Position numbers and translations under genes: made by a program. Source: the human T2T-CHM13v2.0 reference genome, Homo sapiens. Taken from it: 64,000 nucleotides of DNA. Positions 29,699-32,600 of this stretch are shown one piece after another. Within the stretch, counting starts at the first letter, position 1, and each line of letters begins with the position of its first letter. Location: NCBI RefSeq assembly GCF_009914755.1, contig NC_060935.1, one strand, 5' to 3'. Below the pieces are notes generated by a model. That model was not told the origin of the DNA, made no database searches, and saw only the letters and a list, made by a program, of their open reading frames with translations.

Positions 29699-32600
29699 AA
29701 GGGAGGTTCCAAGATGGCCAAATAGGAACAGCTCCAGTCTACAGCCCCCAGCGTGAGTGACGCAGAAGACGGGTGATTTCTGCATTTCCAACTGAGGTAC
29801 CGGGTTCATCTCACTGGGGCTTGTCAGACAGTGGGTACAACCCACGGAGCATGAGCCAAAGCAGGGTGGGGCATCACCTCACCCAGGAAGCACAAGGGGT
29901 TGGGGAATTCCCTTTCCTAGCCAAGGGAAGCCATGACTGACGGTACCTGGAAAATCAGGACACTCCCCACCCTAATACTGTGCTTTTCCAATGGTCTTAG
30001 CAAACGGCACACCAGGAGATTATGTCCCAGGCCTGGCTCGGAGGGTCCCATGCCCACGGAGCCTGGCTCACTGCTAGCACAGCAGTCTGAGATCGAACTG
30101 CAAAGCAGCAGCGAGGCTGGGGGAGGGGTGTCCACCATTGCTGAGACTTGAGTAGGTAAACAAAGCAGCCAGGAAGCTCGAAATGGGTGGAGCCCACCGC
30201 AGCTCAAGGAGGCCTGCCTGCCTCTGTAGACTCCACCTCTAGGGGCAGGGCACAGCTGAACAAAAGACAGCAGAAACTTCTGCAGACTTAAATGTCCCTG
30301 TCTGACAGCTTTGAAAAGAGTAGGGGTCCTCCCAGCATGGAATATGATATCTGAGAATGGACAGTCTGCCTCTTCAAGTGGGTTCCTGACCCCTGAGTAG
30401 CCTAACTGGGAGGCACCTCCCAGTAGGGGCCGACTGACACCTCATACGGCCAGGTGCCCCTCTGAGACGAAGCTTCCAGAGGAACAATCAGGGAGCAACA
30501 TTTGCCGTTCTGCAATATTTGCTGTTCTGCAGCCTCTGCTGGTGATACCCAAGCAAACAGGGTCTGGAGTGGACCTCCAGCAAACTCCAACAGACCTGCA
30601 GCTGAGGGTCCTGACTGTTAGAAGGAAAACTAACAAAGAGAAAGAACATCCACACCAAAACCCCATCTGTACGTCACCATCATCAAAGACCAAAGGTAGA
30701 TAAAACCAATAAGATGGGGAGAAACCAGAGCAGAGAAGCTGAAAATTCTAAAAATCAGAGCACGTCTTCTCCTCCAAAGGAATGCAGCTCCTCGCCAGCA
30801 ATGGAACAAAGCTGGACAGAGAATGACTTTCACAAGTTGAGAGAAGAAGGCTTCAGATGATCAGTAATAACAAACTCCTCCGAGCTAAAGGAGGATGTTT
30901 GAACCTTTTAGCAAAGAAGCTAAAAACCTTGAAAAAACATTAGACGAATGGCTAACTAGAAAAAACAGCATAGAGAAGACCTTAAATGACCTGATGGAGC
31001 TGAAAACCATGGCACGAGAACTATGTGACACATGCACAAGCTTCAGTAGCTGATTCAATCAAGTGGAAGAAAGGGATTGAAGATCAAATGAATGAAATGA
31101 AGCAAGAAGAGAAGTTTAGAGAAAAAAGAGTAAAAAGAAATGTACAAAGCCTCCAAGAAATATGGGACTATGTGAAAAGACCAAATCTACATCTGATTGG
31201 TGTACCTGAAAGTGATGGGGAGAATGGAACCAAGTTGGAAAACGCTCTGCAGGATATTATCCAGGAGAACTTCCCCAATCTAGTGAGGCAGGCCAGCATT
31301 CAAATTCAGGAAATACAGAGAATGCCGCAAAGATACTCCTCAAGAAGAGTAACTCAAAGACACATAATTGTCAGATTCACCAAAGTTGAAATGAAGGAAA
31401 AAACATTAAGTGCAGCGAGAGAGAAAGGGCAGGTTACCCACAAAGGGAAGTCCATCAGACTAACAGCATCTTTCGGCAGAAACTCTACAAGCCAGAAGAG
31501 AGTGGGGGCCAATATTCAACATTCTTAAAGAAAAGAATTTTCAACCCAGAATTTCATATCCAGCCAAACTAAGCTTCATAAGTGAAGGAGAAATAAAATC
31601 CTTTACAGACAAGCAAATGCTGAGAGATTTTGTCACCACCAGGCCTGCCTTACAAGAGCTCCTGAAGGAAGCACTAAACATGGAAAGGAACAACCAGTAC
31701 CAGCCACTGCAAAAACATGCCAAATTGTAAAGATCATTGAGGCTAGGAAGAAACTGCATCAACTAACGAGCAAAATAACCAGCTAACATCATAATGACAG
31801 GATCAAATTCACACATAACAATATTAACCTTAAATGTAAATGGGCTAAATGCTCCAGTTAAAAGACATGGACTGGCAAATTGGATAAAGAGTCAAGACCC
31901 ATCAGTGTGCTGTATTCAGCAGACCCATCTCATGTGCAGAGACGCACATAGGCTCAAAATAAAGGGATGGAGGAAGATCTACCAAGGAAATGGAAAGCAA
32001 AAAAAAGCAGGAGTTGCAATCCTAGTCTCTGATAAAACAGACTTTAAACCAACAAAGATCAAAAGAGACAAAGAAGGCCATTACATAATGATAAAGGGAT
32101 CAATTCAACAAGAAGAGCTAACTATCCTAAAAATATATGCACCTAATACAGGAGCACCAGATTCACAAAGCAAGTCCTTAGAGACCTACAAAGAGACTTA
32201 GACTCCCACACAATAATAATGGGAGACTTTATCACCCCACGGTCAATATTAGACAGATCAACAAGACAGAAAATTAACAAAGATATCCAGAAATTGAACT
32301 CAGCTCTGCACCAAGCGGACCTAATAGACATCTACAGAACTCTCCACTCCAAATCAACAGAATATACATTCTTCTCGGCACCACATCACACTTATTCCAA
32401 AAATTGACTACATAGTTGGAAGTAAAGCACTCCTCAGCAAATGTAAAAGAACAGAAATTATAACAAACTGCCTCTCAGACTACAGTGCTTTCAAACTAGA
32501 ACTCAGGATTAAGAAACTCACTCAGAACCACTCAACTACATGGAAACTGAGCAACCTGCTCCTGAGTGACTACTGGGTACTTAACGAAGTGAAGGCAGAA

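What the first reader, a model, noticed from the sequence alone, without database searches (positions are those of the whole stretch)
29917..30138. Intronic L1 ORF0 is open and its splice donor is in frame with the BDNF coding exon: a predicted L1-driven ORF0-proBDNF fusion
Seen: the + strand L1PA5/6 has its 5'UTR 6.7 kb upstream (in BDNF orientation) of the exon IX acceptor, so its antisense promoter would fire in the BDNF sense direction. Its ORF0 starts at ATG 30138 (GCAATGG, strong Kozak) and runs stop-free for exactly 192 nt (64 codons) to the donor TTTTCCAG|GTACCG at 29947/29946. The exon IX acceptor is phase 0 (|TTC CAC CAG). Known: primate L1 ORF0 has splice donors and forms fusions with nearby exons; in the L1HS consensus this donor is phase 2. 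Here an apparent 1-nt insertion (cactCCCCacc, ~29965) moves it to phase 0. Inference: splicing 29947 to 22992 would encode a 64+7+247 = 318-aa ORF0-preproBDNF, or at least a TE-derived alternative BDNF first exon that is active when L1 is derepressed. The donor is only moderately strong.
Basis: partly seen in the sequence, partly recalled or inferred. Interest (0 to 1): 0.8.

Follow-up and report, generated by a model that had tools for sequence, protein, structure and literature searches.

The report
In-frame L1 ORF0 remnant upstream of BDNF
An old, decayed L1 retrotransposon in a BDNF intron still carries its small antisense reading frame, and a one-base insertion happens to put one weak splice site in frame with the BDNF coding exon, but nothing found here shows that this splice is ever made.

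Summary
The sequence facts hold. A full-length, decayed L1 lies on the + strand at about 29701-35723. Its antisense ORF0 starts at ATG 30138 and runs 64 stop-free codons to CAG|GTACCG (last exon base 29947). Joining it to the exon IX acceptor (22992) gives a 318-codon frame. The 1-nt insertion at 29965-29968 is real and private to this copy. It is absent from 29 of 29 nearest genomic relatives and 28 of 28 scored young L1 copies, all of the latter with a 191-nt, phase-2 spacing.

The interpretation stays a hypothesis. Frame agreement has a 1-in-3 prior. ORF0 openness is inherited: 11 of 29 relatives also keep ATG plus an open frame. The donor is weak. The element is CpG-depleted and keeps the 129-bp segment of older L1PA lineages. 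No RefSeq BDNF transcript starts there. BDNF is absent from a catalogue of 988 L1-antisense transcripts, and 5' RACE in brain found no such first exon.

Best reading: a silent relic with a coincidental in-frame arrangement. I could not query expression or junction data. Interest is low, with a small chance of a notable primate-specific BDNF isoform.

The parts
29701..35723 (+). Full-length but decayed L1 (L1PA type) in the BDNF intron between exon 38465-38747 and exon 24565-24681
   Evidence: 5' end ...gggaggttccaagatggccaaataggaac..., 3' A-run ending ~35723, and flanking putative target-site duplication AAGAAC[T/C]TGGA at 29688-29699 and 35722-35732. ORF1 and ORF2 are broken into many short + strand ORFs.
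29701..30714 (+). L1 5'UTR (about 1014 nt; ORF1 ATG at 30715)
   Evidence: Counted over 29702-30714 (1013 nt): 18 CpG, observed/expected 0.25. 86% identity to young copies and 90-92% to nearest relatives.
30448..30583 (+). About 128 nt present here and absent from young L1 copies (the '129-bp' segment of older L1PA 5'UTRs)
   Evidence: Gaps of 108 + 20 nt in 5 of 5 young copies aligned, and none in 4 of 4 relatives aligned. A 129-bp sequence present in L1PA3/L1PA4 and lost in L1PA2/L1PA1 is described in PMC5860796 (passages).
29917..30138 (-). Unspliced ORF0 homologue, 73 codons plus TAG
   Evidence: Homologous to the 71-codon antisense ORF of 26 of 28 young L1 copies. No Pfam family.
29947..30138 (-). 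ORF0 part upstream of the candidate donor: 192 nt, 64 codons, in-frame Met at codons 1 and 30
29941..29949 (-). Candidate donor CAG|GTACCG (homologue of the second ORF0 donor), phase 0 in this copy only
   Evidence: Crude score 0.33. CAGGTACCG or CAGGTACCA in 15 of 29 relatives. Young copies carry CAGGTGCGT in 21 of 28.
29965..29968 (-). Private 1-nt insertion in a G-run (GGG to GGGG on the minus strand) that shifts the donor from phase 2 to phase 0
   Evidence: 0 of 29 relatives and 0 of 28 young copies have it.
30027..30035 (-). Relic of the first ORF0 donor, CAG|GCCTGG (GT lost)
   Evidence: GT at this site in 29 of 29 scored young copies and 2 of 29 relatives; GC in 24 of 29 relatives.
29877..29885 (-). 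Downstream donor TGG|GTGAGG, 64 nt past the candidate donor and after the ORF0 stop
   Evidence: Crude score 3.17. Homologue CAG|GTGAGG in 27 of 28 young copies. Use of this site leaves ORF0 as a 73-codon upstream ORF.
22972..22992 (-). First 21 nt of exon IXd (FHQVRRV), open in the BDNF frame, behind a strong pyrimidine-rich acceptor
   Evidence: The same read-through is used by in-frame ATGs of exons I, VII and VIII (PMC2568880, section read). Exon 38465-38747 gives an 82-aa extension.
22228..22971 (-). BDNF coding sequence (247 codons)
   Evidence: Hub annotation.
24565..24681 (-). Exon VIIIh, an annotated exon between the L1 and exon IXd. Its inclusion would end the ORF0 frame at codon 66.
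   Evidence: Hub annotation.

Best explanation
This is a roughly 6-kb L1PA insertion of intermediate age that has decayed in place. Its antisense ORF0 is still open simply because it descends from an open ORF0 and has had few hits. A chance 1-nt expansion of a G-run, 18 nt before the second ORF0 splice donor, moved that donor from the family's phase 2 to phase 0. Phase 0 happens to match the phase-0 read-through of BDNF exon IXd.

The arrangement is a coincidence and not a working gene part. The antisense promoter is most likely silent in normal tissues. If it ever fires, the weak CAG|GTACCG donor competes with better sites. The shown steps are the ORF, the donor, the private insertion, the in-frame join and the decay of the element. 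The inferred step is the lack of use.
For: - **Openness is inherited.** 11 of 29 nearest relatives keep ATG and no stop up to the donor, and 26 of 28 scored young copies have the 71-codon ORF. Only the last 6 codons lie behind the frameshift.
- **Phase match has a 1/3 prior.** Two other GT sites inside ORF0 are also phase 0 with exon IXd (last exon bases 30013 and 29971), so frame agreement is cheap here.
- **The donor is weak.** It lacks the consensus bases at +4, +5 and +6. It scores 0.33 on a crude, recalled position matrix, against 3.17 for TGG|GTGAGG at 29883 and 8.2 for the exon 38465-38747 donor. 58 of 403 GT sites between the ATG and exon IX score higher.
- **The first ORF0 donor is lost.** It reads GC in this copy and in 24 of 29 relatives.
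- **The promoter has decayed.** The 480-nt ASP/ORF0 region holds 8 CpG, against a mean of 20.2 in young copies. ATGGCG at the start codon (29 of 29 young copies) is ATGGTG here. Criscione et al. place a YY1 site at L1 nt 448-453 next to the antisense start sites. The ATG of young copies maps to about nt 449.
- **It is an older lineage.** It keeps the ~128-nt segment lost in L1PA2/L1PA1. A multi-omic brain study that examined L1HS to L1PA4 reported that all the exemplar L1 alternative promoters it described were hominoid- or human-specific insertions.
- **No transcript evidence.** None of the 17 RefSeq BDNF transcripts has an exon in 29701-30340 (hub annotation). BDNF does not occur in the main text or in the 10 held supplementary files of the 988-transcript L1 antisense catalogue. 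5' RACE from exon IX defined nine 5' exons, none here. Full-text searches for BDNF with 'L1 antisense promoter', with 'LINE-1' plus 'chimeric transcript', with 'L1PA' plus 'alternative promoter', and with 'ORF0' returned 5, 19, 5 and 12 papers. None reports such a transcript, judging by listings for all of them and by passages for PMC10619931, PMC9148063 and PMC11934714.
Against: - Absence of evidence is weak here. No RNA-seq junction, CAGE or chromatin data could be queried. The EST catalogue and the adult-brain RACE do not sample L1-derepressed states well.
- L1PA2-8 elements do show antisense starts in the 5'UTR at the same place as L1HS.
- 4 of 10 annotated donors in this window score no better than 0.74 on the same crude matrix, so a weak donor can be used.
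- The exon IXd acceptor is strong and is the default partner of every upstream BDNF exon.
- The ORF0 ATG would be the first ATG for any start between 30139 and 30335.
- An 82-aa N-terminal extension through the same acceptor already exists for exon 38465-38747.
Confidence: 0.8

Rival explanations
1. The L1 antisense promoter fires when L1s are hypomethylated (early embryo, pluripotent cells, placenta, tumours). It then supplies a non-coding alternative first exon for BDNF. Splicing mainly uses the stronger downstream donor TGG|GTGAGG (29883) or another site. ORF0 then acts as a 73-codon upstream ORF, and BDNF is translated, poorly, from its own ATG.
For: [quoted passage not shown] The downstream donor scores 3.17 against 0.33, and its homologue is conserved: GT in 25 of 29 relatives and 27 of 29 scored young copies. 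A join from 29883 stops at codon 73, before the junction. The orientation is right, and the exon IXd acceptor is strong.
Against: No such BDNF transcript appears in RefSeq (hub annotation), in the 988-transcript catalogue or in 5' RACE. The CpG content and the start-site motif are decayed.
Confidence: 0.11
2. Antisense transcripts start upstream of 30138 and splice 29947 to 22992. They are translated into a 318-aa ORF0-preproBDNF. Transcripts starting downstream of the first ATG would use Met30 and give 289 aa. The BDNF signal peptide would then lie internally at about residues 72-89. It might still direct ER entry and cleavage and so release ordinary proBDNF.
For: The frame is open for 318 codons. 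The start context has G at -3 and +4, and there is no upstream ATG back to 30338. The private insertion creates the frame. ORF0 fusions to nearby exons are a known class, with 57 of about 3200 loci according to Criscione's summary of Denli et al.. Extended prepro-BDNF frames are known, one of them 82 aa long. The strongest hydrophobic segment of the fusion is the BDNF signal region, and ORF0 itself has none comparable: maximum 11-residue Kyte-Doolittle mean 1.59, against 2.75 at the junction with the signal region.
Against: All the points listed for the best explanation apply. In addition, Criscione et al. place the main antisense EST starts at about L1 nt 400, which is about 50 nt downstream of the ORF0 ATG (about nt 449), so many transcripts would lack the first ATG. 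Inclusion of exon VIIIh or IXb would end the frame at codon 66 or 93.
Confidence: 0.04
3. The donor at 29947 is used, rarely, not from the L1 promoter but as the 3' edge of a cryptic exon. This would be antisense L1 exonisation within BDNF pre-mRNAs that start at the normal promoters. The result is noise or NMD-prone isoforms.
For: The L1 lies inside the primary transcripts from exons I-VIII (hub annotation). Antisense L1 sequence is cited as a source of exonisation and cryptic polyadenylation (title of Kaer et al. 2011 in the reference list seen).
Against: No upstream acceptor was looked for or found here. No annotated exon exists in the L1. The donor is weak.
Confidence: 0.05

Closest known systems
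Primate L1 ORF0 and ORF0-exon fusions (Denli et al. 2015, Cell 163:583). The paper is not held here. It is known from passages of PMC4859970, PMC5554003, PMC13517631 and PMC4908685.
   Same: An antisense ORF in the L1PA 5'UTR at the homologous position (ATG at about L1 nt 438 here, about 449 in young copies). It has a purine at -3 and G at +4, a length of about 70 aa, and an internal splice donor. It points towards a downstream host exon that it could join in frame.
   Different: - This copy is old and CpG-depleted.
- The first donor is lost.
- The second donor is a weaker variant (GTACCG, against GTGCGT in young copies).
- The last 6 codons before that donor, and the unspliced tail beyond it, are frameshifted by a private insertion.
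- No transcript or peptide evidence exists.
- Whether BDNF is among Denli's 57 fusion loci could not be checked, because the paper and its tables were not available.
L1 antisense-promoter chimeric transcripts (Speek 2001, recalled; Criscione et al. 2016, PMC4908685)
   Same: A full-length L1PA lies in an intron, antisense to the host gene, with its 5'UTR facing the next exon. This is the standard geometry.
   Different: BDNF is not among the 988 catalogued genes (text and 10 supplementary files).
N-terminally extended prepro-BDNF isoforms from exons I, VII and VIII (Pruunsild et al. 2007, PMC2568880)
   Same: They use the same exon IXd acceptor and the same 21-nt FHQVRRV read-through. Exon 38465-38747 adds 82 residues, which is comparable to the 71 proposed here.
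   Different: Those exons are supported by cDNA and RACE, and they are not transposon-derived according to anything seen here. The proposed exon has no such support.

Membership tests
L1 ORF0 locus | Lies antisense in the 5'UTR of a primate L1PA element, at the position homologous to ORF0 of young L1s | tested here: met
   It aligns to the 71-codon antisense ORF of 28 scored young copies with intact ORF1 (82-83% identity over the region). The ATG is at L1 nt 438, against about 449.
L1 ORF0 locus | ATG in a good initiation context and an open frame of about 70 codons | tested here: met
   tcagcaATGg; 73 codons unspliced and 64 to the donor.
L1 ORF0 locus | Two splice donor sites within the ORF (SD1 and SD2, as stated in PMC4859970 and PMC13517631) | tested here: not met
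   The SD2 homologue keeps GT (CAG|GTACCG). The SD1 homologue is CAG|GC here and in 24 of 29 relatives, and GT in 29 of 29 scored young copies. The mapping of 'SD1/SD2' onto these two sites is my inference, because Denli's figure was not available.
L1 ORF0 locus | Transcribed from the L1 antisense promoter | not testable with these tools
   No expression, CAGE or chromatin data. The indirect signs are unfavourable: 8 CpG against a mean of 20.2, and ATGGCG changed to ATGGTG.
ORF0-host exon fusion | Donor phase compatible with the acceptor, so that the host frame is read | tested here: met
   192 nt, phase 0. The join is open for 318 codons. The ancestral 191-nt spacing stops at codon 67.
ORF0-host exon fusion | Observed spliced RNA (EST, RNA-seq or ribosome-profiling junction) or peptide | not testable with these tools
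   Only literature could be searched. BDNF is absent from PMC4908685 and its 10 held supplementary files. Four BDNF-with-L1 full-text searches found no report.
BDNF 5' exon / promoter (Pruunsild nomenclature) | Transcription start mapped by RACE or cDNA, and splicing to exon IXd | tested here: not met
   Nine 5' exons were defined by 5' RACE and RT-PCR, none in this L1 (PMC2568880, section 4). No RefSeq exon lies in 29701-30340 (hub annotation). This is a literature and annotation check, not a new experiment.

The most novel reading that the evidence does not exclude
In cells where L1s are derepressed, this element acts as a tenth, transposon-derived BDNF promoter. Its ORF0 exon would splice 29947 to 22992, giving an ORF0-preproBDNF whose reading frame was created by a lineage-specific 1-nt insertion. 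That would be a primate- or human-lineage-specific BDNF isoform.
Probability: 0.04. Interest if true: 0.65.

Novelty: new member of a known kind. Interest (0 to 1): 0.2.

Why it matters
BDNF is one of the most studied neuronal genes, and its many promoters are central to its regulation. A transposon-born promoter and coding extension that is active when L1s are derepressed would link L1 activation to neurotrophin expression. It would also be a datable example of a frame created by a single-base insertion.

As things stand, the locus mainly shows that an old L1 can, by chance, present an in-frame ORF0 donor to a host exon. Such paper fusions should be expected at many of the thousands of ORF0 loci, and they need transcript evidence before they count.

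Tried and rejected
- **Denli et al. 2015, the primary ORF0 paper:** not held. Its list of 57 fusion loci and its donor map could not be checked. ORF0 properties are therefore taken from passages in reviews.
- **Other papers not held:** Speek 2001, Macia 2011 and Matlik 2006. Published positions of antisense splice donors and activity by subfamily could not be read.
- **Pfam scan of the 73-aa ORF0 product:** 0 families.
- **Second L1 of the window as a comparator:** only its first ~310 nt align, and it has no ORF0 homologue, so it was of no use for the question.
- **Proper splice-site model:** MaxEntScan was not available. The donor ranking rests on a crude position matrix with frequencies recalled from memory and on matches to the consensus, so only large differences should be trusted.
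- **Subfamily naming (L1PA5/6):** not possible without a repeat library.
- **Primate orthologues and human variation at the insertion:** not available.
- **Two malformed literature queries:** the first was corrected. The second was replaced by reading the paper by its PMC id.
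Full report
**What is there**

The window is the BDNF locus on T2T chr11 (hub annotation, confirmed). A full-length L1 lies on the + strand from about 29701 to about 35723.
- It starts with the typical 5' end (...gggaggttccaagatggccaaataggaac...) and ends in an A-run.
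- It is flanked by a putative target-site duplication, AAGAAC[T/C]TGGA, at 29688-29699 and 35722-35732.
- Its ORF1 and ORF2 are broken into many short ORFs, so it is an old, dead copy.
- It sits in the BDNF intron between exon 38465-38747 and exon 24565-24681, antisense to BDNF.
- Its 5'UTR (29701-30714) therefore faces the coding exon. Anything started by its antisense promoter would run in the BDNF sense direction.

**Check of the observation**

On the minus strand the ATG has its A at 30138, in the context tcagcaATGg. The frame is stop-free for 64 codons (192 nt) to CAG|GTACCG, with last exon base 29947. If unspliced it runs on to TAG at 29919-29917, giving 73 aa.

The exon IXd acceptor is ccctacag|TTCCACCAGG at 22993|22992, followed by 21 nt (FHQVRRV) before the BDNF ATG at 22971. 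A join computed in a script is open for 318 codons, with junction [15 protein letters not shown].

**The 1-nt insertion**

The window's own genome can be searched. One search returned the 29 most similar copies of the ORF0 region (90-93% identity).
- In those 29 copies the ATG-to-donor distance is 191 nt in 26 and 190 nt in 3. It is 192 nt in none.
- The site reads GGGTGGGAGTG or a near variant in the 28 copies where it aligned. The window reads GGGTGGGGAGTG.

For young elements, searched Pfam PF02994 (L1 ORF1p) and I took the 30 best loci, all without internal stops in the match.
- 28 of the 30 could be aligned over ORF0.
- All 28 have 191 nt (phase 2).
- 26 have a 71-codon ORF0.
- 21 have the donor CAG|GTGCGT.
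- 27 have an upstream donor CAG|GTGTGG in phase 1.

The insertion is private to this copy: 0 of 57 other copies examined have it.

**Is it more than chance?**

No.
- ORF0 openness is inherited. 11 of 29 relatives keep ATG and no stop up to the donor. Only the last 6 codons lie behind the frameshift.
- A match of donor and acceptor phase has a prior of one in three.
- Two other GT sites within ORF0 are also phase 0. They have last exon bases 30013 and 29971, both upstream of the insertion, and would give 296- and 310-codon frames.
- With about 3000 ORF0 loci in the genome, many paper fusions of this kind are expected.

**How good are the parts?**

*Donor.* CAG|GTACCG matches the consensus only from -3 to +3.
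- On a crude position matrix, whose frequencies I recalled and which is not MaxEnt, it scores 0.33.
- TGG|GTGAGG, 64 nt further on (last exon base 29883), scores 3.17. The donors of exons 24565-24681 and 38465-38747 score 5.1 and 8.2.
- 58 of 403 GT sites between the ATG and exon IX score higher.
- In fairness, 4 of 10 annotated donors in the window score 0.74 or less, so weak donors are used here for rare isoforms.
- The downstream donor lies after the ORF0 stop. Its use would leave ORF0 as an upstream ORF.
- The homologue of the first ORF0 donor is CAG|GC in this copy and in 24 of 29 relatives, against GT in 29 of 29 scored young copies.

*Intervening exons.* Inclusion of exon VIIIh or IXb would end the frame at codon 66 or 93.

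*Promoter.*
- The 5'UTR has 18 CpG in 1013 nt, observed/expected 0.25.
- The 480-nt ASP/ORF0 region has 8 CpG, against a mean of 20.2 in young copies and 9.9 in relatives.
- The hexamer ATGGCG at the start codon, invariant in 29 of 29 scored young copies, is ATGGTG here.
- Criscione et al. put a YY1 site at L1 nt 448-453, next to the main antisense start sites at about nt 400. The ATG of young copies maps to about nt 449. That this hexamer is the YY1 site is my inference.
- The same numbers imply that many antisense transcripts start about 50 nt downstream of the ORF0 ATG. In this copy the next in-frame Met is codon 30.

*Age.*
- The copy keeps about 128 nt (30448-30583) that 5 of 5 aligned young copies lack. 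This fits the 129-bp sequence present in L1PA3/L1PA4 and lost in L1PA2/L1PA1 (PMC5860796, passages).
- It is 86% identical to young copies over the 5'UTR and 90-92% identical to its nearest relatives.
- The label L1PA5/6 is plausible but could not be verified.

**Evidence from annotation and print**

- None of the exons of the 17 RefSeq BDNF transcripts listed by the hub lies in the L1.
- Pruunsild et al. (PMC2568880, section 4 read) used 5' RACE with exon IX primers on hippocampus and cerebellum and defined nine 5' exons. None is here.
- They also state that exons I, VII and VIII carry in-frame ATGs that extend prepro-BDNF, so the read-through of the 21-nt leader is already known. I find an 82-aa extension for exon 38465-38747.
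- Criscione et al. (PMC4908685) catalogued 988 EST-supported L1 antisense transcripts. 'BDNF' occurs neither in the text nor in the 10 held supplementary files.
- Four full-text searches were run. They paired BDNF with 'L1 antisense promoter', with 'LINE-1' and 'chimeric transcript', with 'L1PA' and 'alternative promoter', and with 'ORF0'. They gave 5, 19, 5 and 12 papers.
- By title and abstract none concerns such a transcript.
- In the three papers I opened, BDNF is a culture supplement or is mentioned in another context, or is not found in the held part of the text.
- A fifth search, for a TE-derived novel first exon of BDNF, found nothing.
- A brain multi-omic study that examined L1HS to L1PA4 found more than 60 L1 chimeras. 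It notes that all the L1s in the alternative-promoter examples it describes are hominoid- or human-specific insertions. Its table S3 could not be opened.
- Denli et al. 2015 is not held, so its list of 57 fusions remains unchecked.

**Mechanism and verdict**

The most likely account (0.8) is a silent relic. An old L1PA 5'UTR kept its ORF0 by descent, and a G-run slippage happened to bring a weak donor into the BDNF frame.

The rivals are:
- a non-coding L1-initiated first exon, made through the stronger downstream donor in hypomethylated cells (0.11);
- cryptic exon use within normal BDNF pre-mRNA (0.05);

If the fusion were made, the BDNF signal peptide would be internal. The strongest hydrophobic windows start at residues 71-74, and ORF0 has none comparable. 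By inference it could still direct ER entry and cleavage, so the mature product might be ordinary proBDNF.

What would change the verdict is simple and external: junction reads, CAGE or H3K4me3 signal on this 5'UTR, and the state of the insertion in other humans and apes.

**Comparison with the known**

The locus meets the positional, start-codon and length criteria of an L1 ORF0 locus. It fails the 'two donors' criterion. It meets the in-frame criterion of an ORF0-exon fusion, but the defining evidence, an observed spliced RNA or peptide, is missing.

It is best filed as an unverified candidate of a known kind. Interest is low as it stands, and would be moderate to high only if expression data show use.

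Noticed in passing
window 46778-53285 (minus strand): A second, roughly 6.5-kb L1 lies in the opposite orientation. Its 5' end is inside the RefSeq 'enhancer' 52706-53611. Only its first ~310 nt align to the first L1's 5'UTR (83%), and it has no ORF0 ATG or donor homologue, so it probably has an older 5'UTR type.
   Followed up: partly
window 29701-35723 and 46778-53285: The two L1s form an inverted pair. There are 13 gap-free arms of 160-393 nt, 86-98% complementary and 11-23 kb apart. The pair brackets BDNF exon 38465-38747, which is rarely used according to PMC2568880, and the BDNF-AS exons at 39702-42210. Such pairs can base-pair in pre-mRNA and favour exon skipping, back-splicing or editing. 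Two arms (33736-34017 at 98%, 31999-32158 at 97%) are clearly more similar than the rest.
   Followed up: no
window 30013 and 29971 (minus strand): Two further GT sites inside ORF0 are also in phase 0 with exon IXd: CTG|GTGTGC and AGG|GTGGGG. They would give 296- and 310-codon frames. They lie upstream of the private insertion and score higher than the proposed donor on the crude matrix.
   Followed up: partly
window 24362-24370 (minus strand): A perfect-consensus donor, CAG|GTAAGT, has its last exon base at 24370. It lies between exon VIIIh (24565-24681) and the start of the long exon IX form (24065), and is not an annotated exon end.
   Followed up: no
L002-L030 (relatives of the ORF0 region): In this older subfamily the ORF0 frame is often longer than in young L1s. 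In 11 of the 29 relatives the frame read from the aligned start position has no stop within 100 codons (8 of these 11 keep the ATG), and in 4 it ends at codon 87. In 26 of 28 young copies it is 71 codons. The first ORF0 donor (GT) appears to be a later acquisition or was lost early: 2 of 29 relatives have it, against 29 of 29 young copies.
   Followed up: partly
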